Shown piece by piece: positions 13,332-28,498 of a stretch of 64,000 bases of DNA. The DNA comes from Syntrophobacter sp. SbD2 (lineage in GTDB: Bacteria > Desulfobacterota > Binatia > UBA9968). Numbering within the stretch: position 1 is the stretch's first letter; each line of letters starts with the position of its first letter. The notes under the pieces are model-generated. The model saw only the letters and a program-made list of their open reading frames with translations, was not told where the DNA came from and did no database searches. The position numbers and the translations under genes are program-made. The stretch spans positions 506-64,505 of the forward strand of contig CAMDBU010000006.1 in NCBI GenBank assembly GCA_945889495.1, in the 5' to 3' direction.

Positions 13332-16130
13332 ATGGACACACCCAAATATCAAAAAAGTGACCCGGCGATCCTCTTGTTAAACGAGATCGACATCCTATTG
13401 GCGCAGACGCGCTTGATGGAGTTGTATCTCAAGCAAGCCCAGGCCACCGCGGCCAACGAAAACGCCCGCATCCACGAACAGTACGAAACCGAGCTGACGG
13501 CGCTGCGCGCCGAGCTCGCCGACAAGGAACGGCAGCTCCAGCAAGCGCCGGCCATCGACCGCAATCTCACCGCGGTCGTCGAGCAACTGCAACGCGAGCT
13601 CAGCGAAAAACAGCAGTGGGTCGCCGGCCAGCACGCGGTATGGCAACGCTCCAGCGGCGAGATCGCCGCGCTGCAACAACGCATCACCCAACTCGAAGGC
13701 GAAAACCAAACCGCGCTCAACGCCGCCCGCGAAGCCAATGGGATCAGGGAAAGTCTGGTCGCCGATGTCAGCGCGCTCAACCGTGAACTGGAGAAAAACC
13801 GGCGCGAATTCGACCACCAGCAACTAACCGCGCGGCAACTCGAAAGCAGCCTACGCGAGCAGCTCCAACTGTTGCAAACCCAGCTCGCCGACAAACAAGC
13901 CTACGCCCTCACGAGCGACGACGAACTCGGCAAAGCCCGTCAAGAAATCGCCGCCCTGCGCCAACATCTGGGCTCCCTGCAAGCGCTCCAGGACGAACTC
14001 CAGGCCAATGCGACGCAATCGCTGGAGCTCGCCCAGGGCCGCTTCGAGGGCGAACTGGTCAGCCTGCGCGCGGCCTTGACCGAGCGCGATCGCTCGGTGG
14101 CCGAGAGCCAAGCCGCGCTGGTCGAGATCGAGCGCGGCCTGCGCGGTGAGATCGACCAGCTGCGCAATGAACTTGATCAAAAGCAAAACGCCTTGCGGCT
14201 GCGCGACGACGATATGCGCAGCGCCGGCGGCCAAATCGCCGCGCTCCAACAACGGCTCGCCGAGCTCGAACTCGCCCAGCGCCAAGCCGCCGCCGCCAAT
14301 GCCGAGAGTGAAAGCCGGCGCCGCGAGCTCGCCGAAGAAGTCGCCAACCTCCAGCATGAAGTGGAGGTCAAGGAAAAAGAGCTGGTCAACCGCTACGAAG
14401 CGGTGACCGCCGTCGAGCTCGCCTTGCATGGCCGCATTCAAGCGTTGCAACAGGAACTGTCGCGCGCCCACGAAGCCTCAGCCGGCCAAGAAGAGGAACT
14501 CGATCAGCAGCGCGCCGCCAGTGCGAACTTACAGAGCCGCATCGCCGAACTGGAACGCAGCCAAGCCGACACCACCCTGCTCGATGCCACCCGGCGCGAA
14601 CTGGAAAGCGATCTCAACCGCCTACGCGCCGACCTGGCGCAAAAAGAATATTTGTTAAGCGGCCGCGAGCGCGCCAGCGTTGAGTTCGAAGCGCGCGCCA
14701 GCGCCGAACTCGCCACCCTGCGCCAACAGCTGGAAGCCGAACGTGGCGCCACCGCCGAAGTCCACCGCGAAGTCGATCAAGCGCGCGCCGAACTCGCCGC
14801 CAGCCGCGACCAGCTCGAAGCCCAGCTCAAACAAAAGGACGATGAGATTGTTAGCCTGCGCGCCAATGCCAGCGGTCAAAGCGCCCAGCTGGCCCAGCAG
14901 GTCAGCGACTTGCAGACGCAACTGGCCGAGCGCGCGAGCGCGGTGGCCAGTCTCGAAGCGCGTCTCGGCGGTGAATTGGCCGCCTGGCACCAACAGTTGG
15001 CCCAAGAACGCAGCAGCGCCAGCCGGGCCAATGACGCGCTAGCGAATTTACAGGCCGAACTCACCACCCTTGGCGAACGCCACGACAGCGAGCGCCAAGC
15101 AAAAGATCAAGCATTAGCCAGCGCCAGCGCGCACAACGAGCAACTGGCCCAGCGGGTGAGCGAACTACAACTGGATTTGGTCGAGAAGCAGCTCCTGGCC
15201 GAGAGTCGGGGCGGCGAACTCGATCAGCTGCGTACCAGCGTCAGCCAGTTCAACGAACAGCTGAGCGACAATGCCGTGCGCCAAGCGCAATTGGATGACG
15301 AGCTCAACCGCTTGACCAGCGCCCGTGACGACGACGCGCGCCAGCAGACCGCCCTCGCAGTGCAGCTCGACCAAGCACGCGTTGCCAACGCCGCCATCCG
15401 CGCTGAACTGCAAGAGACCAAGAACCGCGGCGCTGAACTGGAAGCGCTGCTGGAAAGCCAGCACAGCGCCATGGCGGTGATGGAGACCGAACGCGCCCGC
15501 TTGCGCCAAGATCTCGACGAGCTCGACACGCGCCACCAGCAAAACTTGGCCGATGGCAGACAGGCGTTGACCAGCCTACGCAGTAACTTGGAAGCTGAAC
15601 TGAGCACACTGCGCGCTGAACTGCAGCAAAAAGCCTGGACCCTGGCGCAGCACCAGGCGAGCGTCGAAAATCTCGCCCAGGTGCACCGCGAGCAGATTCG
15701 TAAACTGGAAGCGCGTCTGCACGATCAACAGCCCAACACCGAAGCGTCTTCGCAAGCCGTCGAGCAGGCGCTCAGCCGCGCCAATGATTTGCAGCGCCAG
15801 GTGGAAGAACTGCAAACCGCCTTACATCAAGCCCAAGCCGCCGGCGCAAACCAGGCGGAACAAATTCGCCAGGAATACGCCGCCCGTTTGGAAGCGGCTA
15901 ACAATCAGCTGGCGGTCAAATCCGCCGAGCTCGTTAACAGCGGCGCGGTGCGCGCCAATGTCGAAGAATCCCTGCGCGCCGAACTGAGCCGGCTGCGCCG
16001 CGAAACCCAATCCCGCGCCGAAGCGCTGCAAAGCCGGGAAGAAGAGCTCAACCGCGTGCGCGGCGAAATGACCGCGGTGCAGAACCGCATCGTCCAGTTG
16101 CAGTCGGTGACCGCGCGCAGCGAAATATAG
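13332..16130 (+). CDS. giant coiled-coil protein, 5' portion (932 aa ORF) of a gene interrupted by the integrative element at ~16125; stop at 16128-16130 lies in element DNA
   Basis: pure heptad-rich low-complexity sequence (ELxxLRxEL... repeats), no ATPase motifs; frame continues seamlessly into 28499..29370 if 16125..28498 is removed. Confidence 0.8.
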   Translation: MDTPKYQKSDPAILLLNEIDILLAQTRLMELYLKQAQATAANENARIHEQYETELTALRAELADKERQLQQAPAIDRNLTAVVEQLQRELSEKQQWVAGQHAVWQRSSGEIAALQQRITQLEGENQTALNAAREANGIRESLVADVSALNRELEKNRREFDHQQLTARQLESSLREQLQLLQTQLADKQAYALTSDDELGKARQEIAALRQHLGSLQALQDELQANATQSLELAQGRFEGELVSLRAALTERDRSVAESQAALVEIERGLRGEIDQLRNELDQKQNALRLRDDDMRSAGGQIAALQQRLAELELAQRQAAAANAESESRRRELAEEVANLQHEVEVKEKELVNRYEAVTAVELALHGRIQALQQELSRAHEASAGQEEELDQQRAASANLQSRIAELERSQADTTLLDATRRELESDLNRLRADLAQKEYLLSGRERASVEFEARASAELATLRQQLEAERGATAEVHREVDQARAELAASRDQLEAQLKQKDDEIVSLRANASGQSAQLAQQVSDLQTQLAERASAVASLEARLGGELAAWHQQLAQERSSASRANDALANLQAELTTLGERHDSERQAKDQALASASAHNEQLAQRVSELQLDLVEKQLLAESRGGELDQLRTSVSQFNEQLSDNAVRQAQLDDELNRLTSARDDDARQQTALAVQLDQARVANAAIRAELQETKNRGAELEALLESQHSAMAVMETERARLRQDLDELDTRHQQNLADGRQALTSLRSNLEAELSTLRAELQQKAWTLAQHQASVENLAQVHREQIRKLEARLHDQQPNTEASSQAVEQALSRANDLQRQVEELQTALHQAQAAGANQAEQIRQEYAARLEAANNQLAVKSAELVNSGAVRANVEESLRAELSRLRRETQSRAEALQSREEELNRVRGEMTAVQNRIVQLQSVTARSEI

Positions 16131-16246
16131 CGGTGGTGGTTTTTACCGTTGTTTTTATTGATGTTTTTTAAGTGTAGTATAGTTTGTAGTATAGTACCAA
16201 CGCCGAAATAATATAATAATATCAATTACTTAGAGCGTTTTTTGCC

Positions 16247-16340
16247 TACCGCAAACCACCACAAATCTATTAAACGCGATCACCGTCACTTTGCGTAACA
16301 GTCACACACGCTGAGCATGTGTCTTTGAAAACGACACTTC
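16247..16340. repeat. ~85-bp direct repeat, copy A (copy B at 16733..16815), flanking the H-NS-like gene
   Basis: shared CCGCAAACCACC...ACTTTGCGTAAC(A/G)GTCACACACGCT...GTGTC-loop-GACAC. Confidence 0.7.
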
Positions 16341-16662
16341 AGCTTAAAACAGCAAACGACTCACGCTTTGTGCCAGCTTTCTCAGCAGCCGATAACCAAC
16401 GTGGCGCCGTACCACGTCCTGTCCACGTGTTGCCCTTGCCATCATCGTACTTAACTGCAACTTTCTCTCGTTTTTTGCCAGTAGTCTTTTTCGCAGTAGC
16501 CGCCTTACCGCCCATAGCAGCACGTAATTCTGCCAAAGTAATGTCGTTGGCACTCATCTGCTTGACGATGGCTTTGATGACTTTGCCACGCTTGCGACCA
16601 ATACGTTTTGCTTCTGCTAACAGCTTGGCGATCTGTGCTGCGATTTCCGTTGGTGATCTCAT
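16339..16662 (-). CDS. H-NS family nucleoid-associated protein (xenogeneic silencer-like)
   Basis: 107 aa; C-terminal AVKYDDGKGNTWTGRGTAPRWL matches the H-NS DNA-binding motif (YxxxxGxTWTGxGRxPxW). Confidence 0.75.
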   Translation of the reverse strand: MRSPTEIAAQIAKLLAEAKRIGRKRGKVIKAIVKQMSANDITLAELRAAMGGKAATAKKTTGKKREKVAVKYDDGKGNTWTGRGTAPRWLSAAEKAGTKRESFAVLS

Positions 16663-16815: not shown

Positions 16816-16866
16816 AACCACACATACTTTGCAATCCTCAACCGTCCAGCAACAGGACGGTCAGCA

Positions 16867-17241
16867 CTAAACCGTAGCTATTGTCTGCTGTGCTTTAACA
16901 AGTGCTTGCTGTGCTTTACGCTGTTGCTGCCGCGCCCGCTCCGCCGTCACAGCTTGTCCCGCACGTTTCGCTAGGGTTTTCAGCGATGCTACACGTTGCT
17001 GGTCGGGTGTCAGCGGTTTGATTGGCTTGATTGATTTGGGTTGTGCTTCAGTAACGCTGGCCGCTTCGCGTTCACGCTCAGCAGCCGATTCAAGCGTTCT
17101 TGCTATTAAATCATGCAACCACTTATCGTGTCGTGCCTTAATTGTACTAGGATGATTAGGTTGGATTTCATGTATACGCATTGGGTATTTAGCGACACAA
17201 GATTTTTCATGCAAATCTTCAACTACTACAAAAAACTTCAA
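16867..17241 (-). CDS. hypothetical protein, paralog of 21009..21236 (shared AKYPMR[IL]HEIQP...TPDQ[QR]RVA[ST]L motif)
   Basis: 124 aa; ~100 nt near-identical DNA shared with 21100..21215. Confidence 0.5.
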   Translation of the reverse strand: MKFFVVVEDLHEKSCVAKYPMRIHEIQPNHPSTIKARHDKWLHDLIARTLESAAEREREAASVTEAQPKSIKPIKPLTPDQQRVASLKTLAKRAGQAVTAERARQQQRKAQQALVKAQQTIATV

Positions 17242-18050
17242 TCGCAGTTCTTGTAATTGCGAGCTTTACACTCACGTGCAAGTTTTTGTGCCGCAGCTAT
17301 CTGCTGTGTTGTCATCTTTGCTGCAACTATGTCTCTGTTTTTTTCAGCGTCTGCATTACTTTTTACCGCAGCCAAGTTCCACCACATGTGTGCACGTACA
17401 TAATCTTGCACAACACCTCGCCCGTTTCCATACATGATGCCTAAATTGTATTGTGCACGAGCAAGACCTTGTGCCGCTGCCAACTTGTACAACTTCACCG
17501 CCTCTGCATAATCTTGCACAACACCTTGCCCATTTTGATACATGAAGCCTAAATTGCTTTGTGCATCAGCAAGACCTTGTGCCGCTGCCAATCTATACAA
17601 CTTGACTGCTTCTGCGTAGCTTTGTACAACACCCTTCCCTACGTAATACATTACACCTAATTCATGCTGTGATAATGAGAGGCCTTGTATTGCAGACAAT
17701 TTTAATAAACGAACCGCCTCCGTATAATCCTGTACAACTCCTTTTCCATCAATTAGCATTTCAGCTAATTCAAACTGGGCAAGCATGTGACCTTGAGCTA
17801 TTGCCAAGTTAAACCACCGTATCGCTTCTGGGTAGTCCTGCTTTACGCCGAACCCATATTTGTACATCGCCCCAATCTGAGTTTGTGAATATGCATCGCC
17901 TCGTGCTGCTGCAATTTTAAATTTCTTAAGTGCCATCGCATAGTCTTCTTTTGCGAACGCAGCATCACCATCCTCAACTTCACCCGCCCAAACAACAGCA
18001 CTGACTACAATTGCCAGTGTGACAAAAATAGTTCGCAATATCGGCATCAC
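17238..18050 (-). CDS. Sel1-like repeat protein with N-terminal signal peptide
   Basis: 270 aa; repeated A..G.A.AQ..LG.MY..G.GV.QDY.EA..W motifs. Confidence 0.8.
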   Translation of the reverse strand: MMPILRTIFVTLAIVVSAVVWAGEVEDGDAAFAKEDYAMALKKFKIAAARGDAYSQTQIGAMYKYGFGVKQDYPEAIRWFNLAIAQGHMLAQFELAEMLIDGKGVVQDYTEAVRLLKLSAIQGLSLSQHELGVMYYVGKGVVQSYAEAVKLYRLAAAQGLADAQSNLGFMYQNGQGVVQDYAEAVKLYKLAAAQGLARAQYNLGIMYGNGRGVVQDYVRAHMWWNLAAVKSNADAEKNRDIVAAKMTTQQIAAAQKLARECKARNYKNCD

Positions 18051-18227
18051 TTATTTCCCTTGTAGTGACCACATCGTACATTACGCGCTTGTGCCACTAC
18101 CAAAGCACAAGCACTACAATGCGTTAGCTATTCTGATAGCGCTGCCGACTAAACTTTACATAGCTAGCGTAAATATAACCAAGATTGGAGCGAGGGCAGC
18201 ACAAGCAGTCGCTTGATATGAAATCAC

Positions 18228-18476
18228 CTAATTAACTTTTATAACCACATCGCAATTTCGGGCTTCGCTATTTGTGAGGTAAGAACAATTAATATTTCCA
18301 TTTATTACCTCGCCTTTTATTAGTGCACCATCTTGTTTTACCCAATCTTGCTCCTTCGTTCCGCATACTTTGTTTAATGCCTGGCGAATTGCTTTTGGGG
18401 AAACATTTTTATTTACTGTTATCAAAGCAGTTTGGAGCTGATTTCCCTGCTTCCATTGAGCGTTGACACCCACCAC
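18228..18476 (-). CDS. small hypothetical protein
   Basis: 82 aa ORF in AT-rich cargo; no recognisable motif. Confidence 0.3.
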   Translation of the reverse strand: MVGVNAQWKQGNQLQTALITVNKNVSPKAIRQALNKVCGTKEQDWVKQDGALIKGEVINGNINCSYLTNSEARNCDVVIKVN

Positions 18477-18605
18477 ATCTATACCGAGAAAATTATTTAT
18501 TTTATTTAATGCACCATTGTCAGTAAATTCAGATTATCTAGCTCGCGATCCCACCGCTTTGGATAGGCTTAAACTAAATAGCACTTTTTGAATAAGGTCA
18601 TGTTG

Positions 18606-20288
18606 CTACTGCTTTCGATATTTAGTGATCGAAAAAGCTGGTGCAATAGGACCCACTACGTGGGCAGTTTGGTAGACATAATCTTTATCTAAAAAATAGA
18701 CAGTGAATGCATCAGGACTCCCCACTTCGCCGTAGTCAACAAAAATGGTTCTAAACGTGTCATCAGAAATTTCGTCGAGGATTTTTTTATAAGATTCTGA
18801 AACAGCTTTCATTTTTTGGTAGTCAGCTGCTGAAATTACCTTTTGTTGCAACCATCCAGTGAGGCTATTCAAATCTTTATTTATATCTGTCGCTAATTCT
18901 TTTTTAGTGATTTTTCCTTTGTAATAAGCTAAACATTTTTTTTGCGCGGCAGTTTCATTTTTCACCCATTGACAATCTCCAAACTTCGTTTCGCTAATCG
19001 TCAATTTCTCAGCACTGCCTGACCGCCACACCCCAAGCCATCGATTATTAATGGATAGCGAATCCTGAGGCGCCGTCGCGGTTGCTGGCTGAGCAAGTAA
19101 ATATGACATGCCGGCTTCTTCAATAGCGCCATAAAAACTTTGCTGAAGGAATTTACCTAAACAATCTTGATCATTACAGTCAACCTTATAAACCCCTGAG
19201 TATGCTGTTTTATGGTCAAGTCGGCGTTTAGTTGCATTCTCTTCAGCGTATATATTAAGTCTTCTAATTGCCCATGCAATATTCTTAAAGTCTTCACGTG
19301 CACAGATTAATTGCAATCCTTTGTCACTGATATCACTGCAATTAGGCGGAAGAACATCCGCGTACGACGCGCTCTCTTTCATATGTTGCAAAATTAAATT
19401 GTAGTGTGATGTTTTGATATTCCAATTCTCTAAAGGTTTATTGTTATCATTCTTACTGGTTACACCTTCTCTGACCCCGTTTGATTCACCCTTAGTTTCT
19501 GGCTTTGCATCTGTGCGCTTAGCTTCTGTTGGTGGTGCCTGAACCACTTTATTGATATTCCTAACAAATGAAAGTGTGTCTTCATGACCATCGTTAGTTG
19601 TTAGTTTTAAAGTAAAGCTACCGTCCTTTGAGCTTATTTTTCTAAGTGCCCATACGACTGAAGTATTATTGTTTACGATGAGGCTCAGAATATCACTGCG
19701 GCTATCCCATTCCATTACTTTAACAGGAATCACTTTCCCATTAATTTCTATTGATTTATTGTCGCTTTTCAAGCTTATAACAACAGTGGCCTGATCAGTA
19801 TCACCCTTCCAGACACCGCTTAAATCATCTAAGGGATCACTTCCTTTAAAATCTATAAAGGAAACGATAGCAATTGTAGCGATTATCGATGCGATTCCAA
19901 TATACGCCAACTTATTTTCATCGGATTTTTCTTTTACGAATATCTTTTTGTAATAGTCTATGTTAACCCATCCACCAAAAACCAATGGCATAATAAAATA
20001 AGTTGATGCGTTTAAGTATTGCAATAATTTTATTTCTGGAAAGACTGATTCTAATAATGCTGTCAAAACACAACCGAGGGTTATTATCCCAAAGAGGAAC
20101 AGCCCCTTCTTCGACATTCCTAAGTGTACGTAATAAAAAACACCGAAAATAAATCCCCAAATATTGAATGCCGCCGTCACTCTTTCGCTTAAAGATAAGT
20201 TCTTAACTAAGGGGAGTTTCACACCACCGGCCTTGTCAATTAGATCAAATCTTTTTTTCCATTTACCACTAATTTCTTGCTCGGACAT
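18606..20288 (-). CDS. large membrane/extracytoplasmic protein with N-terminal DUF2628-like membrane module
   Basis: 560 aa; N-terminal NIWGFIFGVFYYVHLGMSKK resembles DUF2628; very AT-rich codon usage. Confidence 0.55.
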   Translation of the reverse strand: MSEQEISGKWKKRFDLIDKAGGVKLPLVKNLSLSERVTAAFNIWGFIFGVFYYVHLGMSKKGLFLFGIITLGCVLTALLESVFPEIKLLQYLNASTYFIMPLVFGGWVNIDYYKKIFVKEKSDENKLAYIGIASIIATIAIVSFIDFKGSDPLDDLSGVWKGDTDQATVVISLKSDNKSIEINGKVIPVKVMEWDSRSDILSLIVNNNTSVVWALRKISSKDGSFTLKLTTNDGHEDTLSFVRNINKVVQAPPTEAKRTDAKPETKGESNGVREGVTSKNDNNKPLENWNIKTSHYNLILQHMKESASYADVLPPNCSDISDKGLQLICAREDFKNIAWAIRRLNIYAEENATKRRLDHKTAYSGVYKVDCNDQDCLGKFLQQSFYGAIEEAGMSYLLAQPATATAPQDSLSINNRWLGVWRSGSAEKLTISETKFGDCQWVKNETAAQKKCLAYYKGKITKKELATDINKDLNSLTGWLQQKVISAADYQKMKAVSESYKKILDEISDDTFRTIFVDYGEVGSPDAFTVYFLDKDYVYQTAHVVGPIAPAFSITKYRKQ

Positions 20289-20372
20289 GGCGTTTCCTTT
20301 AATAAAAGTTTGTCTGAATGTCAGTCCTAATTTAACTCAAGATAGATACTGAGATCCCAGTTATAGCGCTGT

Positions 20373-20900
20373 CTAAATTAGCGAAGCAAATTCTATTGCA
20401 AGTAAGATAAAAATTATGAGCAAGGTGATCAATGCGCCCCAGATACTGGTTCCCCCGATTAGCGAAAAATGTAAGGGTGAGTTGGCCACCCTATGTTTGG
20501 TATCGATGTGATCTAGGTACTGCCCGTTAGCATATATTCCGCAGTATGCGACTACTCCTAGATAGAGTAGGTAGCCAACGATATCGCTTTTCGTAACGTA
20601 CACGGCAATTAAAAACGGGAAAATGGTTCCCCACCATAATACCTGTGCAGTTCGCATATACATTTTTCGGTAAGCGAACCAAAGAGATCCCAGTATCGCA
20701 GCCGGCCAATTCCAGGATCGAAAACTTACAAAAGATGCCCCAGCATTTGTATTGCAAAAGTTTTCAAATTGATAGCGGTAATAGTTAACGTTATTTTTTA
20801 TAAACCGCTCAAATTCCTCCGATGCAACAAACTCCGCAGTTATTCTGCGCTCACCTTCTACGCTTACTTTATTTGGTGTCTGTTGATCGCGGGAATTCAT
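20373..20900 (-). CDS. DUF2628 family membrane protein
   Basis: 175 aa; SWNWPAAILGSLWFAYRKMY hallmark. Confidence 0.65.
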   Translation of the reverse strand: MNSRDQQTPNKVSVEGERRITAEFVASEEFERFIKNNVNYYRYQFENFCNTNAGASFVSFRSWNWPAAILGSLWFAYRKMYMRTAQVLWWGTIFPFLIAVYVTKSDIVGYLLYLGVVAYCGIYANGQYLDHIDTKHRVANSPLHFSLIGGTSIWGALITLLIIFILLAIEFASLI

Positions 20901-21236: not shown

Positions 21237-21257
21237 ATCACAGTCTTGTTGATACCG

Positions 21258-21779
21258 TCATTCACAAAACCTAAGCTGTTTATAACCATCGAAATATAAA
21301 TTAAGGGGTTTTCCGTCGATCTCAGCAGACCTCAGTTTATATCCTTTTGTTTCTAAGTTATATAGCCATTGGTAGGTAAGCTTCCCCTTTTTTTTCGTCA
21401 CTGTCGCTTCAATTATTACTAAAGTAGGGTTATTGGCATCCGTTACAAAACTTCGCCAGTTCACACTCCCTTCGAGAGCAACGCAGGCAGCGACAGAAAT
21501 CCCTGCTTCAGTTTTCTTCATCACTGCTATCTCCCCGCTCCTGGAAAAAAAGAAAAATATTGCGGCCAGAACGGCCACACTAGCTATTGGCATCGCCCAG
21601 TTTCGGTTTGAGGTCGCAATTGGTTGTTCGGGCATCCTTTCTTGTGATGCTACTTGTGCCGATAGACTAGGTGCATTTGCCGAAGATACAACCACATCAT
21701 CTTCTACTTTAGTTCCGCATGTGTCGCAGAACTTAACGCCTTGCAATAGTTGCTTCCCGCATCCTGTGCAATAAGCCAT
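21258..21779 (-). CDS. zinc-ribbon domain membrane protein
   Basis: 173 aa; N-terminal CTGCGK...CDTCG zinc ribbon, one TM segment. Confidence 0.55.
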   Translation of the reverse strand: MAYCTGCGKQLLQGVKFCDTCGTKVEDDVVVSSANAPSLSAQVASQERMPEQPIATSNRNWAMPIASVAVLAAIFFFFSRSGEIAVMKKTEAGISVAACVALEGSVNWRSFVTDANNPTLVIIEATVTKKKGKLTYQWLYNLETKGYKLRSAEIDGKPLNLYFDGYKQLRFCE

Positions 21780-21917
21780 ACGCTGCTCCCTATTTTCAGT
21801 TCATACCTTTGCCGCTACTAATCCCGATAACAGCCGTTTCAAAGTATTCCACCGTCCAGTACCAGTTTACGAATAAATCTGCGTGATACTGCAAGGGTCA
21901 GACACAGAACGCCGTTG

Positions 21918-22352
21918 CTAACGCTTGAACCCCCGACGCACCACCGCACTGACCGCCTCAATCTGTGCATCAATTTCACCACTCTCCACCGCTTTACGCA
22001 AAACTGCAAGCGTAGCATTCAATTCTGCCGCCGTCGTCTCTACCGCAGTTCGCCCTCGTGCCAATTCCACCACTTTGTTGCCGTATTTGACAGCAACACA
22101 CACCTTGCCACCGTCCACAGCCCAAAACCACGCTTTCACACGTTTGGGTTGCTGTACCACGCTGACATTGCCCGCCGCATCCTTTACACGTTTACTACGC
22201 ATAGCGGTGTAGACGGTACCCGCAGTTTTCGCCGCTGCCAGTGCTATTTGCTCATCCAGTTTTGCCAACAGCTTTTGACGACGCTGTATGACAGGGTTGT
22301 TTTCGCGTTGCGGTTTTGCGGCTACCAATTTCAGTGTGTTCAGTGTGCTCAT
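21918..22352 (-). CDS. hypothetical protein (element core)
   Basis: 144 aa ORF, no recognisable motif. Confidence 0.45.
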   Translation of the reverse strand: MSTLNTLKLVAAKPQRENNPVIQRRQKLLAKLDEQIALAAAKTAGTVYTAMRSKRVKDAAGNVSVVQQPKRVKAWFWAVDGGKVCVAVKYGNKVVELARGRTAVETTAAELNATLAVLRKAVESGEIDAQIEAVSAVVRRGFKR

Positions 22353-23611
22353 TTGTCGTTCTCCCTCTAGTTAAACTACTGAACACACGATAACGTCTGA
22401 TTTTTCAGAATACGAGTGAAGATTATTTTCACATATTGTTTGGTTTGTATAAATAACTATGACGCGAACAGAATGTTGTTTGTTGCCAGATTTGCCGTAG
22501 TTATACGTGCGATCACATTACTACCGAAAAAACGTGCAGCACCACACAGTCGCTTTGGTGCCCTAAAACTGGCCATTGATGTGCACAGGGACGGAAACGC
22601 TGCGCGGTAGCAGCGACTTGCAGTCACTATCCATAATGGACGCATTCGCATTTGTCAGCGAATTGGCGCAAGGAGAAACGAATTTGACACGAAGATGAAG
22701 CTGTGAGAACCCTACAGCTTGCGTCACAAGCAAGCACTGCCTACACGGCAACTTGCAAACTTGCAGTGGTCGTCACTTTGGCTGCTGCACTTAAGTTGCG
22801 TTTGATCAGCAGCACGTAAAAGGAGACCGCCAAACTGCCCTTTACCTCATACAGGTTGTGCCAAAGTGTTAGTGGTAAGAACTCAGCGAATGAGATTTCC
22901 ATATTGAGCCTGTTGCTTAAGGCTCAGTGTGAGTTGAATCTTGCGAATGGGTGTGTATTAAAAGCAATTCATGTATTCAATGCTTCAAATCATTTAATAG
23001 TTCGCGACTTTTTAAAACTACTAAAACTGGAAGTTAAAAAAAATCTGCAAGTCAGCAATACGTAATGAGCGTAGCGAATGAAGTAGTGCGACGCAGCAGA
23101 AACTGAGCGCGAAGCGTTCAGTTAAAAATAGACTGCCAAATAATGCTGCACGAGGCTATGGGTTGAGGTTTTTGTAACCATCTCTGTCAGCAAAACCTTC
23201 CAGCATTACAAAACCACCCTGTTGTGTCAATCATCAGCACCTGGCTGTTACATGGAACTGATACAGCACACGGCTACGCACTACACACCGACTACAGCGG
23301 TTAACGCTGAGACGCACGAAACAACGCCGCAAGCGTTTTGGTACAGCGTGGGCAAGCGTGGGTAGCTGAATGCTGCCTGACAACGCGATAACGCACGATA
23401 ACGTTGCTGAAGCGATTTACGCGACACACAGCACTGCACCCGCTATGTACAGCCCAATTCAGAATCAAATAGTTTCACTAAAGTATTTGGTCAGACGCGA
23501 ACTGCTTGAAATCATTGACCTCTTTTGCAGAGCCAGTTTCGGTCGTATTTTCGGAACAACGAATGCACAATAAATACACGACTATTATTTGATTAACGGG
23601 AGAAACGACAA

Positions 23612-24178
23612 ATGGCGCAAGCACGTACACTGAAGGAAAAAGAACTCAAACAACTACTGCAATTTATTGCTTTTCGCAAACACGCATTACGGAACCGCTG
23701 TATGTTGCTGATTACGCATTGGGCTGGAATGCGGGTTGGAGAAGTGGCTGCACTGCAATACTCAGATGTGCTGGCAGCAGACGGCAGCATACTTGCCGAA
23801 ATACGTTTGGCAGCAGATCAGACTAAAGGCGACAAAGCACGTGTTGTGTATGTGGCAGAAAAACTACGCAAAGAACTGCTGAACTATGTTCGCACTTACC
23901 CGCAGACTAACCCAACACGCCCCTTGTTTTACACGCAGAAACGCGACCACTTCACAGCAAACACTTTGGCACAGCACTTTTTCTGGTTGTACAAGGCGGC
24001 AGGGCTAAATGGTGCTTCGTCACATTCTGGCCGAAGGACTTTCATCACTACTTTGGCAAACAAGGGGGTCAGTGTGCGGTTACTGCAAGCTCTTGCTGGT
24101 CACCGTTCAATTACCACTACCCAAGTGTATATCGACGTAAATGACGCGATGAAGCGAGCGGCGGTGGAACTGGTGTGA
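23612..24178 (+). CDS. short tyrosine recombinase (catalytic domain only, phage-integrase family)
   Basis: 188 aa; R...HSGRRTF...LAGHRSITTTQVY (R-HxxR-Y catalytic residues). Confidence 0.75.
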   Translation: MAQARTLKEKELKQLLQFIAFRKHALRNRCMLLITHWAGMRVGEVAALQYSDVLAADGSILAEIRLAADQTKGDKARVVYVAEKLRKELLNYVRTYPQTNPTRPLFYTQKRDHFTANTLAQHFFWLYKAAGLNGASSHSGRRTFITTLANKGVSVRLLQALAGHRSITTTQVYIDVNDAMKRAAVELV

Positions 24179-24312: not shown

Positions 24313-25020
24313 TTATTTCTTTTTGCTGGGAACCACAGACAAACCGCACTGCGCTGATTTCGCAACAGTAGGTAGGGGCGGCAGTGCCAAGCCGTTACGA
24401 GCCAAGTAGATGAGTTCATCCAGCTTGTTCATGTAATCGCGCAAGTCGCCTGTTGACTCCACCAGTTGCAAACAGTACAGAGCCTGCTGATCCGACAAAT
24501 GAACGTCTTCGCTCTGCAGAATTAATTGCGCTCTAGTTAGAACTTGACGTGCGCTCAAAGCAGGGAAATTTATCAGGCCACAGCGCGAACGCAGACTTTT
24601 GTGAATGTTCATCGCATCGTTGGTCGTGACAATCAACATGACTCTGTCCTGCACGGCATCAAGCGCTTTCCAAAAATTGGCGAAATCCCCTTTTAGGGTA
24701 TCTAGTTCCTCCGCCACGATAAACAATTTCTCTCCCTCCTCAAGAAATATAACGGAGGTCGCGCTCTGTAAATAAGTACGTAGATTTTTCATGCGCACGA
24801 GTTCTTCCATGTCTTTGTGTTCAATTCGTGCGTGTGCGCCGCCGATAGCCACTGGCAGTAAACGCGCCGCTGTACTTTTTCCAGTACCGTTCGGCCCCCA
24901 AAGCAAGATGTTTCCTTCAAGTGCCTTGTTTGCATAGGCGTCAATTCGGGTTTGCACAGCCAGGCTGGGGTAGATCACATCGCCAAGTGACTGGGGTGCG
25001 TATTTGATAGCGGTTTTCAT
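24313..25020 (-). CDS. clamp-loader-like (RFC/DnaX-type) AAA+ ATPase
   Basis: 235 aa; KYAPQSLGDVI...LLWGPNGTGKST (RFC box II/III), Walker B IFLEEGE, SRC arginine-finger motif LRSRCGLINF. Confidence 0.7.
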   Translation of the reverse strand: MKTAIKYAPQSLGDVIYPSLAVQTRIDAYANKALEGNILLWGPNGTGKSTAARLLPVAIGGAHARIEHKDMEELVRMKNLRTYLQSATSVIFLEEGEKLFIVAEELDTLKGDFANFWKALDAVQDRVMLIVTTNDAMNIHKSLRSRCGLINFPALSARQVLTRAQLILQSEDVHLSDQQALYCLQLVESTGDLRDYMNKLDELIYLARNGLALPPLPTVAKSAQCGLSVVPSKKK

Positions 25021-25092
25021 GTTTTGTGTTCCTTTGTGTAGTGGTTTTTTTTGTGTATGTCGAAAAGGGGAGTTCCCTCCCCCTTTCGGTCA

Positions 25093-25878
25093 TTAAGCTA
25101 CTTTTGCGAAAACATCCGCGTTGGCCGCCATCCCCAACAAATCGCTAGCCTCTTTGTTGAGCGCCTGATCTGCATCTTTTTGACCAGCGCGAACTTTTGC
25201 CATGCGTATCAGCAGTGCCTGAACGAGAGCTTCGTTGATGTCGGACAAAACACCCACAATAGAAACCATGCCGTCTGGTGCAGGTTTAGCCAGCAAAACA
25301 GCGTAATCCCCAGTGACGCCCGCCAGCGACAGCGTTGCCAATGGAGTAATTGTCGCTAGTTCCACGTTCGCTTTGACTTCGCCAGTAGCCGAAACAATCG
25401 CAGCACGTTTCGCCTGTGCCGCTTCTGACACCACCATATCGCGTTTGATTTCTTCGATGCCGCCTTGTTCTGCGATGTAAGCGGGCAGATCGTTAGCGGT
25501 GATAGCTTTAGAAATCGCCGCTTTGAGCACGTAGGCATAGCCATGCGCACGTTTGCGATCTGAGCTGAATACGAAACGCACGAACATCGTGAGTGTCGTC
25601 GTGTTGCTCTGCACTTTGACTCCATCCGCTGTAAGCCGCGCACAAAGCTCATTGCGCAGCGTCTTACGGCTGTTGCCATCAGCGTTTACGAACTTGTTTT
25701 GGAATACGTCCAAGCAGCCCGCAAGCAACGCGTACAGCCCATCATTAGCTTTCTTGTAGTCAGTTATTTCCCACTGCTGACGACGCTCAGACAGAGCGTC
25801 CAGAGACTGGACGATGCCATTTGCAATAATCATGTTGTCGTTCGACGGGGTAAAGGCGGTTTTGACAGATTTGCTCAT
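25093..25878 (-). CDS. hypothetical protein upstream of the AAA+ ATPase (likely start ATG 25876-25878 with GGAGA RBS)
   Basis: 262 aa; ORF track version starts 37 codons earlier. Confidence 0.5.
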   Translation of the reverse strand: MSKSVKTAFTPSNDNMIIANGIVQSLDALSERRQQWEITDYKKANDGLYALLAGCLDVFQNKFVNADGNSRKTLRNELCARLTADGVKVQSNTTTLTMFVRFVFSSDRKRAHGYAYVLKAAISKAITANDLPAYIAEQGGIEEIKRDMVVSEAAQAKRAAIVSATGEVKANVELATITPLATLSLAGVTGDYAVLLAKPAPDGMVSIVGVLSDINEALVQALLIRMAKVRAGQKDADQALNKEASDLLGMAANADVFAKVA

Positions 25879-26017
25879 TTTGATTCTCCGATTTAAAAGT
25901 CGGCGCGATGCTGGTGGCGGAATTGCCAGAAGTTGTATCGCGCTGACGAATAGGATTAGATCACTAAGAACTAATAAATCAGTCAACAACCAATAATCAG
26001 TTATTATCTGTAGACAT

Positions 26018-26953
26018 ATGAAAGAACAATTGCTTCCGTGGTACCTCCGTAGCGCGGATTTCTACAAACCGAACTGGCACACACGGCCTACGATTGGCTT
26101 TGAGTTGCTGTTTGAGTTTTTGCGGCTCAGCCCTAGCTATGAACTGGCCCGCAAAGCCAGCATGGAAGGGCTAAGCACTGCTGACCAGCTACTATTGCCG
26201 CCAGATTTTGAGCAGGTAAAAAACACCTATCAGCTCTTGGGCGATGTGCAAAAAATCTTGTTTCGGCAATGGTGGATCGCAAGAGGACTCAGCACCTTTG
26301 GCAATCCCTACGCACGCCCAAAATTGCACGCAGTCGCACAACTGGCAGGTGGGAAAGATATTTCGGCTGAAACCCTCGTAGGTAACTTCGAAAGTTACCT
26401 AGCTGGAGCGCGTCATGAGGAAGGGCTAGTGGATAGCGTGCTCATCGCAGTCCCTTTGGGCCTACGTCAATCAGAAATCCGCAGACAGATGTCCGCTATT
26501 CTTACTGCCTATTCAGGCCATGAGCAAAACTCACGGCAAAGTCCATTGATAAAATTGCAAGGCAAGCGGCTGCGATCAAAGGTGCTGTTCAATGGCCTAC
26601 GACTGCTTTGGTTTAAAGCTGCAAAACCCCAATGGGAACACTGGCGGCTGGGTGCTAAATCAAGATTCAGCGTCACCTATTCCAAAGAACTCAATCCTGC
26701 CAATCCCCGTAGAGTGGTCAGCACGCTGGAATCGTACGATAGAGAGATGATGACAAAAATCACCAATCGCGCGCTGAAGAAATTCGAATCCATTGCGGAG
26801 AACGCAGCAAGAGGGCGATTCCCTTCGCAAGACCCAGTCCATCCAGTAGATTTTCAGTATCCGTTTCTTGCCAAACGAATACAGCGCAAAAACACATGGG
26901 AACAAGAGGAGAAAGCACGGTTACTTGCGGCATTCCGCAGCCGTCGGCATTAG
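26018..26953 (+). CDS. hypothetical protein
   Basis: 311 aa ORF adjacent to integrase; no motif recognised. Confidence 0.5.
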   Translation: MKEQLLPWYLRSADFYKPNWHTRPTIGFELLFEFLRLSPSYELARKASMEGLSTADQLLLPPDFEQVKNTYQLLGDVQKILFRQWWIARGLSTFGNPYARPKLHAVAQLAGGKDISAETLVGNFESYLAGARHEEGLVDSVLIAVPLGLRQSEIRRQMSAILTAYSGHEQNSRQSPLIKLQGKRLRSKVLFNGLRLLWFKAAKPQWEHWRLGAKSRFSVTYSKELNPANPRRVVSTLESYDREMMTKITNRALKKFESIAENAARGRFPSQDPVHPVDFQYPFLAKRIQRKNTWEQEEKARLLAAFRSRRH

Positions 26954-27101: not shown

Positions 27102-28370
27102 TCAGGCTTTCTGCCGCTTCTTCGTCGGTTTCATCGACTGCAATTTAGCCACGTTCATTTCGTTCTGGTAATGACTGCCGTAGAAACGTGTGATCATTTC
27201 CGCGCTAGTTCTGGCATTTTGCGCCAACGTATTCCAGTCGATGTTGTCGCCCTTAGTAATCCGAAACATGATTGCTGTGTGACGCAGGCTATACAACGTG
27301 CGCACCGTACTTTTCGCATCCAGTCGCAAATCAGTCACTTCTAGCAAGTGGTAAAACAGTCGCACCAGCTGTACGTAAGCGTAGTCTCTGTTGCGATGCT
27401 CTGGCATAAACACGTAATCGTCGTCTTTAGCCAATTTCCGTTCAGCTTGATATTCTCGTTGCCGTTCATACACTTCAACGGCGATGGGCATACTGATGAA
27501 GGGCTTGTTGTGCTTTTTGGTGGTTGGGGGTGACAAGCGCAAATACGTGTTGTCCTTTCGCACTACTGCCACATGCGAATGCTTCAGCACCTTAATATCT
27601 GATGGCCGCACGTAAGTGTTGACCATAAACAAGATCAAGTTATGCAACTCTTGTGTAAATCGCATCCGCCGCTCTGCCTTACCTTGCGCATTACGCACAA
27701 CGATCTCAGTGCCTACTAATGCCTTCGCTTTGTTATGCAGTTTCGTGTATTCCCAACTATTAAAATAACCACGCGGGTCATCTTCCATAGTGATGGTGGG
27801 AAACGCGGGTAAGTGCGGGATGATTTGCTTGCGGTGGGCGTGCTTTAACACTTTACGCAGCAGCGATTCGTGTAACTTAAGCGTTGCGACCTTCAGCCCT
27901 TTTTCCGTCAGCGTGTTTAAGTAAGTCTCTATAACCGTGTAATCAATCTGCCCCACATCGTATGTGCGGAAATACGGCAGCATGTGTACACGCAGACGGC
28001 TTTGTTCGTTGACGTTGATGCTTGCGCTGAGTTCCCCGCGCTTGATGCGTGACTCTTGCAACTTCAGCATCTCTTTCGCGCAAACCTCAAAGCGCGAATT
28101 TTTACCAATAACTAAACCACCCGTCTTACGCACAAGCAGCTCTTCGTAAAAGGCAATGGCTGCCTTAAACGCTTCGTTCTTCTTATCAGTTTTTGTAGTG
28201 CGTTTGAAAATTCTTCCGCTATCGTAAAAACGTGCCCAATAAAATGGGGAGGCGTCGATGCGGAATATGACTAGCTTGCTTGGATAATTCGGTACAGATT
28301 CAACAGTAGAGGGAATAGGAACTGTTCTGTGCCTACTAATTACCAAAGCTGTTTCATGCTTAGTATCCAT
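27102..28370 (-). CDS. int: tyrosine-type site-specific integrase (P4-like, ~420 aa)
   Basis: C-terminal LYSLRHTAIMF...Y catalytic box; N-terminal arm-binding-like region; located at element end next to tRNA-like att fragment. Confidence 0.88.
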   Translation of the reverse strand: MDTKHETALVISRHRTVPIPSTVESVPNYPSKLVIFRIDASPFYWARFYDSGRIFKRTTKTDKKNEAFKAAIAFYEELLVRKTGGLVIGKNSRFEVCAKEMLKLQESRIKRGELSASINVNEQSRLRVHMLPYFRTYDVGQIDYTVIETYLNTLTEKGLKVATLKLHESLLRKVLKHAHRKQIIPHLPAFPTITMEDDPRGYFNSWEYTKLHNKAKALVGTEIVVRNAQGKAERRMRFTQELHNLILFMVNTYVRPSDIKVLKHSHVAVVRKDNTYLRLSPPTTKKHNKPFISMPIAVEVYERQREYQAERKLAKDDDYVFMPEHRNRDYAYVQLVRLFYHLLEVTDLRLDAKSTVRTLYSLRHTAIMFRITKGDNIDWNTLAQNARTSAEMITRFYGSHYQNEMNVAKLQSMKPTKKRQKA

Positions 28371-28446
28371 GCTTGTAGTATAGCTTATACTATACTACAA
28401 AATCAACCACGTAAATTCCTAACTGATTGAATTTACGTGGTTTTTT

Positions 28447-28498
28447 TGGTGGAGACGAGGAGGATCGAACTCCCGACCTTCGCATTGCGAAAGCGAAG
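28447..28498 (-). tRNA. 3' half of a tRNA-Ala(CGC)-like sequence (CCA end, T-arm GGGAG-TTCGATC-CTCCT, acceptor 3' strand CGTCTCC with U70, A73 discriminator); fragment only, att-site derived, not a functional tRNA
   Basis: manual fold of reverse complement; no matching 5' half (no D-arm, no complementary acceptor strand) downstream. Confidence 0.6.

What the first reader, a model, noticed from the sequence alone, without database searches (positions are those of the whole stretch)
16119..28498. 12.4-kb AT-rich integrative element inserted inside a coiled-coil gene; excision restores the ORF in frame
GC content drops abruptly at ~16125 and recovers at ~28498. The left flank ends ...GCG CGC AGC GAA (TARSE) and the ORF stops two codons later in element DNA. 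The right flank resumes ...AGC GAA GCT CGG GAA ATC (SEAREISQAK...) in the same coiled-coil style. Deleting the element plus one copy of the 6-bp AGCGAA repeat joins the two halves in frame (…LQSVTARSE|AREISQAKSGLENELTSLRGEVQQK…). The element carries a P4-like integrase at one end. TGTAGTATAG arm-type repeats lie near both ends (16173-16194; 28374-28383, 4 bp upstream of the int start codon).
Basis: seen in the sequence. Interest (0 to 1): 0.85.

Follow-up and report, generated by a model that had tools for sequence, protein, structure and literature searches.

The report
tRNA-specific island misintegrated into a gene
A 12.4-kb mobile island whose integrase normally inserts into a tRNA-Ala gene of freshwater Proteobacteria has instead landed at a look-alike site inside a conserved coiled-coil gene of a Binatia bacterium and split it, which is a clean natural example of a known process (off-target site-specific integration), not a new mechanism.

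Summary
A 45% GC block sits in 59-60% GC DNA and splits a conserved 1223-aa coiled-coil gene. Syntenic orthologues are uninterrupted.

The integrase-proximal end carries the 3' 45 nt of a tRNA-Ala(CGC) gene, from the anticodon loop to CCA. A 95.5%-identical sister island sits beside an intact tRNA-Ala(CGC) in a Burkholderiales-like MAG. Other relatives sit at tRNA-Ala, Thr, Pro, Arg and Val genes of Proteobacteria.

This copy is therefore an off-target insertion at a pseudo-attB. That site matches the tRNA core at 17 of 24 positions, the single best match in 51.6 kb of host DNA. The junctions lie in the canonical crossover register.

Two details need correcting. The duplicated core is GCGAAA (16120-16125 and 28487-28492), not AGCGAA, which restores ...ARSESEAREI... 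as in all orthologues checked. The integrase is a divergent lambda-Int-type tyrosine recombinase, and no P4-type domain was found.

The island also carries an H-NS-like gene, a second small recombinase and a Polynucleobacter-1 RNA. The host is Binatia, so recent cross-phylum transfer is likely.

The phenomenon is known (ICEBs1 and SGI1 secondary sites). This is a new member of a known kind, of moderate interest.

The parts
13332..16125 (+). N-terminal 931 codons of the split Binatia coiled-coil gene. The truncated ORF runs on to a stop at 16128-16130.
   Evidence: ORF list. It is 85% identical to the uninterrupted 1235-aa orthologue P0001. Synteny is the same: aminotransferase, coiled-coil gene, two KaiC-like genes, ClpB.
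16120..16125 (.). Left copy of the 6-bp crossover core GCGAAA (TTTCGC on the minus strand).
   Evidence: Sequence. This register restores ARSESEAR as in the orthologues.
16126..16200 (-). P arm of the element. It holds two direct arm-type repeats, TGTAGTATAG at 16173-16182 and 16185-16194. On the minus strand, the conserved AACGG that follows them lies 21 nt upstream of the crossover.
   Evidence: The same arm and the same 21-nt spacing occur at the canonical attR of L012, L102 and L103.
16339..16662 (-). H-NS-family DNA-binding protein gene (107 aa).
   Evidence: PF00816, E 1.2e-12, above the cut-off.
16867..22352 (-). Cargo block. It holds a 124-aa ORF, a Sel1-repeat protein (17238-18050), two DUF2628 membrane proteins (18606-20288 and 20373-20900), a zinc-ribbon protein (21258-21779) and a DUF6641 protein (21918-22352).
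   Evidence: Pfam. No PADLOC hit for any of them. Only the DUF6641 gene is shared with the sister islands.
22534..22670 (+). Polynucleobacter-1 RNA motif (RF01718).
   Evidence: 93.5 bits against a gathering score of 37. It is syntenic in L006, L007 and L008.
23612..24178 (+). Second, small (188 aa) tyrosine recombinase consisting of the catalytic domain only.
   Evidence: PF00589, E 1.7e-28. phrog_216 and sub-threshold Xer/invertase models. Conserved in all sister islands.
24313..26953 (.). Conserved backbone genes. These are a clamp-loader-like AAA+ ATPase (24313-25020, -), an unknown protein of 261-298 aa (25093-25989, -) and an unknown protein of 311 aa (26018-26953, +).
   Evidence: The same gene order occurs in L010-L021.
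27102..28370 (-). Integrase (422 aa), a divergent lambda-Int-type tyrosine recombinase.
   Evidence: phrog_1, E 3e-19. AF2 model pLDDT 84. Best PDB matches are full-length lambda Int, 1z1g and 1z1b. R255, K285, R363 and Y397 are invariant. Relatives lie beside tRNA genes.
28374..28399 (.). Inverted pair of arm-type sites, TGTAGTATAG-N6-CTATACTACA. It overlaps a promoter-like site for int.
   Evidence: The palindrome is conserved in L006, L012 and L023.
28405..28442 (-). 14-bp-stem hairpin between the tRNA fragment and the arm sites, probably the terminator that served the regenerated tRNA.
   Evidence: (I8). Present in L005 and L011 and absent from L023.
28447..28491 (-). Element-borne 3' 45 nt of tRNA-Ala(CGC), positions 32-76: anticodon loop TTCGCAA through the CCA end.
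   Evidence: Identical to the 3' part of the intact tRNA-Ala(CGC) of L006, L008, L009 and L023. ARAGORN finds no whole tRNA in the window. The Rfam tRNA model gives only a partial, sub-threshold match.
28487..28492 (.). Right copy of the crossover core GCGAAA.
28493..29370 (+). C-terminal 291 codons of the split coiled-coil gene. Gene callers report a 255-aa ORF from the ATG at 28603.

Best explanation
The block is a small integrative genomic island. It has an integrase, a conserved backbone of about 5 kb, variable cargo and an H-NS-like gene. Its lambda-Int-type integrase normally recombines attP with the anticodon-loop region of a tRNA-Ala(CGC) gene, and the island supplies a replacement 3' half of the tRNA.

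In this Binatia genome, Int instead recombined attP with a pseudo-attB inside a conserved coiled-coil gene. On the minus strand that site reads GAGCTTCGCT-TTCGCTG-CGCGCGG. It mimics the tRNA's D/anticodon-stem, loop and stem (GAGCGTCGCG-TTCGCAA-TGCGAAG).

Strand exchange took place within T-TTCGC. That left the 6-bp core at both junctions, an orphan tRNA half next to int, and the gene split after codon 931.

Shown here: the insertion, its exact borders, the canonical tRNA target of the sister islands, the register of the crossover, and the Binatia identity of the flanks.

Inferred: that Int catalysed the event; that the island came recently from a freshwater Burkholderiales-type proteobacterium; that the cognate tRNA core is absent or different in the host; and that excision from this site is impaired.
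For: 1. Split gene. The joined ORF of 1223 aa has no internal stop. It is 85% identical end to end to P0001. The L001 DNA runs straight across the site, and gene order on both sides is identical.

2. tRNA half. The 45 nt at 28491-28447 are identical to the 3' part of intact tRNA-Ala(CGC) genes that lie just upstream of related integrases in L006, L008, L009 and L023.

3. Sister islands. L023 is 95.5% identical over 4.4 kb and sits at an intact tRNA-Ala(CGC). L012 and L018 are 93% identical over 5.1 kb and sit at tRNA-Thr(CGT). L012 has the displaced native tRNA 3' half at its far end.

4. Register. On the minus strand, the conserved AACGG that follows the P-arm repeats is followed by 21 nt and then TTCG, both here and at the canonical attR sites of L012, L102 and L103.

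5. Pseudo-attB. It matches the 24-nt tRNA core at 17 of 24 positions. That is the only site reaching 17 in 51,633 bp of host DNA on both strands. It also fits AGCnnCGCnTTCGY, the consensus of the Ala and Thr targets.

6. Family habit. In 41 of 60 GTDB loci a tRNA gene lies within about 350 bp of int.

7. Integrase identity. phrog_1 hit, lambda-Int fold, invariant R/K/R/Y residues, and arm repeats in both arms.

8. Not an artefact. Both junctions are 100% identical in contigs from other assemblies.

9. Host and origin. The host ClpB clusters at 90% or more with Candidatus Binatia proteins, and the coiled-coil orthologues are named Binatia. Relatives of the integrase are almost all Beta- or Alphaproteobacteria. 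Homologues of the L023 flank are named Burkholderiales. The island carries a Polynucleobacter-1 RNA, described as 'Burkholderiales, fresh water', and an H-NS gene.
Against: Only 5-6 bp are shared at the crossover, and the B' side of the pseudo-site matches poorly in register (4 of 7).

Extrapolating from this window (my estimate), a 4-5 Mb genome would hold tens of sites scoring 17 of 24 or better. Similarity explains the choice of site only in part.

The host's own tRNA-Ala(CGC) could not be examined, so 'primary site missing' is untested.

No empty-site or circular-attP sequences from the same population were found: the P0002 cluster has one member, and no hit of 90% identity or more spans the junction.

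All the data are metagenome assemblies.

L005 shows the same int module joined to another non-tRNA sequence. This variant may simply have relaxed specificity, so the present insertion need not be a rare accident.

The low GC of the island is a family trait even in 60-64% GC proteobacterial hosts, so it says nothing about the direction of transfer.
Confidence: 0.85

Rival explanations
1. The island is a dedicated gene-interrupting element, like skin/sigK, the comK prophage or 'active lysogeny' elements. On this view the coiled-coil gene is its proper target, and regulated excision reconstitutes the gene, which lies upstream of two KaiC-like ATPase genes.
For: Precise excision would restore an intact, conserved ORF. 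The integrase and both arms are intact. The insertion is identical in samples from at least three assemblies.
Against: The element carries a tRNA-Ala 3' half that has no function at this site. The closest relatives and 41 of 60 more distant ones sit at tRNA genes. No other genome shows an insertion in this gene: 13 orthologues are uninterrupted. The two junctions share only 5-6 bp, which impaired excision in ICEBs1 (PMC3715440). No excisionase candidate was recognised.
Confidence: 0.05
2. The structure is an assembly chimera. On this view a proteobacterial island was joined to Binatia DNA by the assembler.
For: All sequences are short-read metagenome contigs. L011 breaks inside the tRNA fragment, which suggests a branching assembly graph there. 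The island is 95% identical to one in a different phylum.
Against: Both junctions fall at the same codon of one gene. They share only 6 bp, far below any assembly k-mer. They lie exactly in the canonical crossover register. The left and right junctions are reproduced base for base in ERZ27280297, and the left one also in Logan ERR3719144. A chimera would not produce a reciprocal pair of junctions that restores an ORF.
Confidence: 0.03
3. The island got there without its integrase, for example by microhomology-mediated illegitimate recombination of a linear or circular copy, or through the second 188-aa recombinase.
For: Only 5-6 bp of identity lie at the junctions. A second recombinase gene is present.
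Against: The break in the island lies exactly at the attP crossover used at canonical tRNA sites, with the same 21-nt spacing and a start at T32 of the tRNA. The target resembles the tRNA core beyond the microhomology. The 188-aa protein lacks a core-binding domain and is not next to the att site.
Confidence: 0.05

Closest known systems
ICEBs1 of Bacillus subtilis at secondary attachment sites (Menard & Grossman 2013, PMC3715440; review PMC5812530)
   Same: The primary attB lies in a tRNA gene. A tyrosine integrase mediates integration. Insertion can occur at secondary sites that resemble attB, including sites inside genes, particularly when the primary site is absent. Mismatched junctions then impair excision.
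   Different: ICEBs1 is conjugative, with a relaxase and T4SS, and belongs to Firmicutes. Its secondary sites were obtained experimentally. Here no transfer genes were recognised, the event is natural, it is seen in an uncultured Binatia, and it apparently followed cross-phylum transfer.
tDNA-integrating genomic islands with an anticodon-centred attP (class A of Williams 2002; Islander database, PMC4383910)
   Same: Int lies next to the target. The island supplies the 3' part of the tRNA from the anticodon loop onward. In sister islands the regenerated tRNA and the displaced 3' fragment mark the two ends (L012).
   Different: In the window copy there is no regenerated tRNA and no displaced fragment, because the target was a protein-coding gene. 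The integrase family falls below Pfam PF00589's cut-off, the model the Islander pipeline uses to find candidate integrases.
Salmonella genomic island 1 at its secondary chromosomal site (PMC2297512)
   Same: It is a small integrative mobilisable island that uses a secondary chromosomal attachment site.
   Different: The primary target of SGI1 is the 3' end of a protein gene (trmE, formerly thdF; PMC8409611), not a tRNA. Its integrase and backbone are unrelated.
Phage lambda Int with attP arm-type and core-type sites
   Same: The predicted fold matches full-length lambda Int, including an N-terminal beta-sheet domain. Repeated 10-bp motifs occur in both arms at a distance from the crossover.
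   Different: Sequence identity is 14-17%. The first His of the HxxR motif is Tyr (my reading of the YSLRHT motif). No Xis or IHF sites were identified. The element is not a phage: there were no phage-record matches and it is essentially absent from IMG/VR.
Gene-interrupting excisable elements (B. subtilis skin in sigK, Listeria phi10403S in comK; from my own knowledge)
   Same: The element lies inside an ORF, and precise excision restores the gene.
   Different: Those elements are dedicated to their gene target. This one is dedicated to a tRNA and is here by accident.

Membership tests
Tyrosine recombinase, heterobivalent lambda-Int type | Catalytic-domain fold and core-binding domain of tyrosine recombinases | tested here: met
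   AF2 model has mean pLDDT 84.3. Top Foldseek PDB matches are lambda Int 1z1g and 1z1b (E 5e-8, about 400 aligned columns), followed by Cre, Tn1549 Int and Xer. phrog_1 integrase, E 3e-19. The core-binding domain matches 2kd1. Pfam PF00589 scores only 17 bits, below its cut-off of 27.1.
Tyrosine recombinase, heterobivalent lambda-Int type | Conserved catalytic residues R, K, H/x-x-R, H/W and Y | tested here: inconclusive
   R255, K285, R363, H364 and Y397 are invariant in 32 sequences. Assignment to catalytic roles comes from motif context (RPxD, TKKH, YSLRHT, RFY), not from a residue-level structural superposition. The first His of HxxR is Tyr360.
Tyrosine recombinase, heterobivalent lambda-Int type | Arm-type binding sites in both att arms and an N-terminal arm-binding domain | tested here: met
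   There are four exact TGTAGTATAG copies, all in the arms. They are conserved in L006, L012, L023 and L103. The model has a three-stranded sheet plus a helix at residues 33-83. Binding itself was not tested.
P4-like integrases | N-terminal DUF4102/PF13356 arm domain plus Phage_int_SAM_3 plus PF00589 above threshold (definition from my own knowledge) | tested here: not met
   The Pfam scan at E <= 0.01 returns only PF13102 (19 bits) and PF00589 (17 bits), both below their cut-offs, and no PF13356. No NCBIfam model matches.
tDNA-integrating genomic island, anticodon-centred attP (Islander class A) | The island carries the 3' part of the target tRNA, starting at the anticodon loop, next to int | tested here: met
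   The 45 nt at 28491-28447 are identical to positions 32-76 of tRNA-Ala(CGC) in L006 and L023.
tDNA-integrating genomic island, anticodon-centred attP (Islander class A) | A regenerated intact tRNA at one end and a displaced tRNA fragment at the other | tested here: not met
   The window has no tRNA gene and only one copy of the 3' fragment. The feature is met in sister islands: L012 has an intact tRNA-Thr at 9872-9947 and the displaced half at 19357-19400. This copy therefore belongs to the family but is not at a tDNA site.
Secondary-site (pseudo-attB) integration of a site-specific element | Junctions lie at the canonical attP crossover, and the target resembles the primary attB | tested here: met
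   The 21-nt spacing from arm to crossover is the same as in canonical attR sites. The target matches the tRNA core at 17 of 24 positions, the unique best site in 51.6 kb on both strands.
Secondary-site (pseudo-attB) integration of a site-specific element | The primary attB is absent or divergent in the host, and excision from the secondary site is reduced | not testable with these tools
   The rest of the Binatia genome and the raw reads are not available. No empty-site or attP sequence of the same population was found in the protein and contig collections.
Integrative and conjugative element (ICE) | Relaxase, coupling protein and type IV secretion genes | tested here: not met
   No such domains were found in any ORF of 16.1-28.5 kb by Pfam, PHROGs or NCBIfam. 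At 12.4 kb the element is too small.
Prophage or phage satellite | Capsid, terminase or tail genes, or known satellite modules; presence in phage collections | tested here: not met
   PHROG hits are limited to integrases, a clamp-loader-like ATPase and families of unknown function. There is no tblastn match in 50,697 phage records. IMG/VR holds one relative at 37% identity plus a short partial match.
Rfam RF01718 Polynucleobacter-1 RNA | Covariance-model score above the curated gathering threshold | tested here: met
   93.5 bits against a threshold of 37, full-length match to model positions 1-141. L006, L007 and L008 score 81.8 bits.

The most novel reading that the evidence does not exclude
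After crossing from freshwater Burkholderiales into Binatia, the island may have stayed excision-competent at its pseudo-site. It would then act as a reversible switch. Integrated, it truncates the coiled-coil protein and may be polar on the two KaiC-like ATPase genes downstream. Excised, it restores them. That would be an 'active-lysogeny'-type regulatory element born from an off-target event.
Probability: 0.05. Interest if true: 0.65.

Novelty: new member of a known kind. Interest (0 to 1): 0.4.

Why it matters
The case gives base-pair resolution on how a tRNA-specific island can enter a phylum outside its usual host range, by using a look-alike site inside a protein gene at the cost of a conserved host gene.

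Because the flanks differ on both sides of T-TTCGC, this natural accident narrows the strand-exchange region of an uncharacterised integrase family to the 5' side of the anticodon loop.

The work also defines a widespread island family of freshwater Proteobacteria that standard integrase models miss. In addition, it places the orphan Polynucleobacter-1 RNA motif inside a mobile element.

None of this changes current understanding of site-specific recombination.

Tried and rejected
- 'P4-like' integrase: not supported by Pfam or NCBIfam.
- Whole tRNA gene at the right end: ARAGORN finds none, and Rfam gives only a partial sub-threshold match.
- Natural gene end at ...ARSEI: rejected, because the orthologues continue colinearly.
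- Assembly chimera: rejected (plus the junction logic).
- ICE, prophage, satellite or defence island: no supporting domains. PADLOC gave only weak AAA hits.
- Function of the 311-aa and 298-aa backbone proteins: no Pfam, PHROG, NCBIfam or PDB sequence hits. Unresolved.
- Excisionase: no candidate among the small ORFs of 22.36-23.61 kb.
- JGI metagenome scan for the exact hairpin variant of the att region: 0 hits. The P-arm scan gave two more canonical tRNA-Thr attR sites only.
- Low GC as evidence for the direction of transfer: rejected, because sister islands are equally AT-rich relative to their proteobacterial hosts.
- L005 upstream 63 bp as a tRNA 5' half: it has some D-arm-like similarity in the alignment, but ARAGORN finds no tRNA. 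Left open.

Full report
OBSERVATION

Sliding-window GC is 0.61-0.66 over the coiled-coil gene. It drops to 0.36-0.52 between about 16.1 and 28.4 kb and recovers to about 0.60 after 28.5 kb. The block averages 0.453 GC; the flanks average 0.595 and 0.593.

ORF 13332-16130 (932 aa) ends ...TARSE-I-stop, two codons into AT-rich DNA. The frame that begins AGC GAA GCT CGG at 28492 stays open to 29370. The composition break, the frame continuity, the integrase gene (27102-28370, minus strand) and the TGTAGTATAG repeats are all real. The repeat occurs four times exactly, only in the two ends of the block. About 0.55 matches are expected by chance, and 0 of 100 shuffles reached 4.

THE GENE REALLY IS SPLIT

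A search with the joined protein found full-length, colinear orthologues. P0001 is 1235 aa, 85% identical and covers 100% of the query. Many others are 55-73% identical, and several are named Candidatus Binatia. The exact 932-aa truncated product was found only in this population.

The P0001 locus has the same neighbours as the window: CNNM, glyoxalase and aminotransferase upstream, then two KaiC-like ATPases, ClpB, two MFS genes and NMT1-family genes downstream. L001 DNA is 90% identical across the joined site but has six extra bases there, GCGCGCAGCGAAAGCGAAGCC. All 13 uninterrupted orthologues where the motif was located read AR[ST]x[SN]EA....

The native junction is therefore ...ARSESEAREI.... 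The duplicated core is GCGAAA (16120-16125 and 28487-28492), and the unique element DNA is 16126-28486 (12,361 bp). The restored gene encodes 1223 aa with no internal stop.

Read on the minus strand, the right end is host DNA followed by TTCGCAATGCGAAGGTCGGGAGTTCGATCCTCCTCGTCTCCACCA. After that come a 14-bp-stem hairpin, the palindrome TGTAGTATAG-N6-CTATACTACA and the int ATG.

The 45 nt are positions 32-76 of a tRNA-Ala(CGC): anticodon loop, 3' anticodon stem, variable loop, T arm, a 3' acceptor strand with U70, A73 and CCA. ARAGORN finds no whole tRNA in the window. The Rfam tRNA model gives only a partial match of 20.7 bits.

RELATIVES SHOW THE NORMAL TARGET

The integrase has hundreds of homologues.

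- L006, L008 and L009 (63% aa identity) have an intact tRNA-Ala(CGC) 68 bp upstream of int. Its 3' 45 nt are identical to the window fragment, and the GTAGTATAG palindrome follows.
- L023 is 95.5% identical in DNA to the window over 4.4 kb (28501-24106) and also sits at an intact tRNA-Ala(CGC). Homologues of its host flank are named Burkholderiales.
- L012 and L016-L022 are 93% identical over 5.1 kb and sit at tRNA-Thr(CGT). That anticodon arm differs from the Ala one by a single base in TTCGYAATGCGAAGGTCG.
- L012 contains a whole island of about 9.4 kb. Its far end reads CTATACTACAAACTATACTACAC...AACGG, then 21 nt, then TTCGTAATGCGAAGGTCCCC..., which is the displaced native tRNA-Thr 3' half. 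Two JGI contigs show the same arrangement.
- Among 60 GTDB loci with more distant family members (38-47% identity), 41 have a tRNA gene within about 350 bp of int. The tRNAs are Thr, Pro, Arg, Val, Ala and Met. The hosts are almost all Beta- or Alphaproteobacteria, many of them freshwater genera such as Limnohabitans, Polynucleobacter and Sphingorhabdus.

THE INSERTION HERE IS OFF-TARGET BUT INT-LIKE

On the minus strand, the window's distal end reads ...CTATACTACAAACTATACTACAC...AACGG, then 21 nt, then TTCGC-TGCGCGCGG. The island therefore broke at exactly the canonical crossover position.

The reconstructed target is GAGCTTCGCT-TTCGCTG-CGCGCGG. The tRNA core is GAGCGTCGCG-TTCGCAA-TGCGAAG. 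They match at 17 of 24 positions: 8 of 10 on the left arm, 5 of 7 in the loop and 4 of 7 on the right. This is the only position reaching 17 in 51,633 bp of reconstructed host DNA on both strands; three sites reach 16. The target also fits AGCnnCGCnTTCGY, the consensus of the Ala and Thr targets.

The flanks differ on both sides of T-TTCGC, so strand exchange must have occurred within those six bases, that is, on the 5' side of the anticodon loop. This agrees with the anticodon-centred attP class of tDNA islands (PMC4383910).

THE INTEGRASE

Pfam gives only sub-threshold PF13102 and PF00589 hits and no PF13356. NCBIfam gives nothing. 'P4-like' is therefore not supported.

PHROGs phrog_1 matches at 3e-19. 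A profile of the family hits an integrase core-binding domain in the PDB. An AlphaFold2 model (pLDDT 84.3) has an N-terminal three-stranded sheet plus helix, a helical core-binding domain and a catalytic domain. Its best PDB matches are full-length lambda Int, 1z1g and 1z1b. R255, K285, R363, H364 and Y397 are invariant.

A promoter-like site lies inside the palindromic arm-site pair, with a -10 of TATACT that ends 6 nt before the ATG. This suggests, but does not show, autoregulated and possibly leaderless int expression.

THE REST OF THE ISLAND

The backbone shared with sister islands comprises int, a 311-aa protein and a 261-298-aa protein of unknown function, a clamp-loader-like AAA+ ATPase, a 188-aa catalytic-domain-only tyrosine recombinase, and a DUF6641 protein.

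The cargo here comprises a zinc-ribbon protein, two DUF2628 membrane proteins, a Sel1-repeat protein, a 124-aa ORF (with a decayed paralogue at 21009-21236) and an H-NS-family protein.

No relaxase, T4SS, phage structural genes or convincing defence-system matches were found. The integrase has no match in phage records and only 26-36% identical matches on five plasmid or chromid records. IMG/VR holds one full-length relative at 37% identity plus a short partial match. How the island moves between cells is unknown. I infer mobilisation in trans.

Position 22534-22670 (+) is a full-length Polynucleobacter-1 RNA (RF01718), scoring 93.5 bits against a threshold of 37. The same motif lies in the same relative position in L006, L007 and L008. 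It was described only as 'Burkholderiales, fresh water/estuary' (PMC2864571).

HOST AND ORIGIN

The flanks are Binatia. The ClpB belongs to a 90% cluster of proteins named Candidatus Binatia, and the coiled-coil orthologues carry the same name.

The island is 93-95.5% identical to islands in proteobacterial contigs, and it carries two markers I take to be proteobacterial: H-NS (from my own knowledge) and the Polynucleobacter-1 RNA. I infer a recent Proteobacteria-to-Binatia transfer, with confidence about 0.7. Low GC does not help with direction, because sister islands are 46-51% GC in 60-64% GC hosts.

ARTEFACT CHECK

The left junction is reproduced base for base in contigs from ERZ27280223, ERZ27280297 and Logan ERR3719144. 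The right junction is reproduced in ERZ27280297. The junctions share 6 bp, are reciprocal and restore an ORF. A chimera is very unlikely.

COMPARISON WITH WHAT IS KNOWN

Integration of tRNA-specific elements at secondary sites that resemble attB is established for ICEBs1. It occurs especially when the primary site is absent, and excision from such sites is impaired when the junctions are mismatched (PMC3715440, PMC5812530). SGI1 also uses a secondary site (PMC2297512).

The present case works the same way but is a natural event in an uncultured lineage and involves a previously undescribed island family. The 7-nt loops at the two junctions differ (TTCGCAA against TTCGCTG). By analogy I expect poor excision, so 'excision restores the ORF' is formally true but probably rare.

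VERDICT

This is a new member of a known kind. Interest is 0.4.

Noticed in passing
window 22534-22670 (+); L006 16150-16290 (-); L007 6202-6342 (-); L008 6342-6482 (-): A full-length Polynucleobacter-1 RNA (RF01718; 93.5 bits here, 81.8 bits in the loci) lies inside the island. In every case it sits 0.8-0.9 kb upstream of the 188-aa small recombinase gene, in the same orientation, and divergent from the DUF6641 gene. This orphan motif thus appears to be a component of a mobile island family. It is absent from the 93%-identical tRNA-Thr islands L012 and L018, where that segment is replaced.
   Followed up: partly
L005 1-165 (ERZ27280268 k141_3860794): The same int module (98.6% DNA identity over 1.5 kb) and the same tRNA-Ala 3' half are joined here to a different GC-rich, non-tRNA sequence (...GCAGTTCGGCGACCGCC|TTCGCAATGCG). 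This may be a second off-target insertion of this variant in another host. Only 63 bp of flank are available.
   Followed up: partly
L023 2866-2941 versus L012 9872-9947: Islands that are 93-95% identical, with integrases about 91% identical, use two different tRNA genes: Ala(CGC) and Thr(CGT). Each island carries the matching 3' half. The two cores differ by one base (TTCGCAATGCGAAGGTCG against TTCGTAATGCGAAGGTCG). This looks like a recent target switch by exchange of the attP core.
   Followed up: partly
window 28377-28406 (-): A sigma-70-like promoter (TTGATT, 18 nt, TATACT) lies inside the palindromic arm-site pair. Its -10 ends 6 nt before the int ATG, which suggests an autoregulated and possibly leaderless int transcript.
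   Followed up: no
window 23612-24178 (+): A 188-aa tyrosine recombinase with a catalytic domain only (FimB/Xer-like hits below the curated cut-offs) is conserved in all sister islands. Its role is unknown. No convincing flanking inverted repeats for an invertible segment were seen.
   Followed up: partly
window 16839-16862, 24275-24298, 26959-26983; and 16319-16338, 24178-24197: Two families of near-identical GC-rich hairpins recur at gene ends within the island, apparently as shared terminator-like palindromes. A 46-nt direct repeat (16281-16326 and 16751-16796, 87% identical) brackets the H-NS-like gene.
   Followed up: no
window 16867-17241 (-) and 21009-21236 (-): The 124-aa ORF and a decayed 75-aa ORF are paralogues sharing ...KYPMR(I/L)HEIQP.... 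The DNA repeats are 78-95% identical. L012 has the same segment at the backbone/cargo boundary, which may mark modular cargo exchange.
   Followed up: no
L024-L049, L065, L078-L081 (GTDB loci): In many alphaproteobacterial relatives the tRNA-Thr(CGT) gene lies about 80-200 bp downstream of the int stop on the same strand. That is the opposite arrangement to the window's clade, where the tRNA is upstream of int.
   Followed up: no
window 29413-30946 (+): Two tandem single-domain KaiC/RecA-like ATPase genes (241 and 260 aa) start 42 bp after the coiled-coil gene and are syntenic in orthologous loci. They may form an operon with the coiled-coil gene, in which case the insertion could be polar on them.
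   Followed up: no
L003 1-133; L004 start (window 13311): Contigs from two other assemblies end or diverge at window position 13311, 21 bp upstream of the coiled-coil start codon. The first 133 nt of L003 do not match the window. This may be a contig-end artefact or a structural variant.
   Followed up: no
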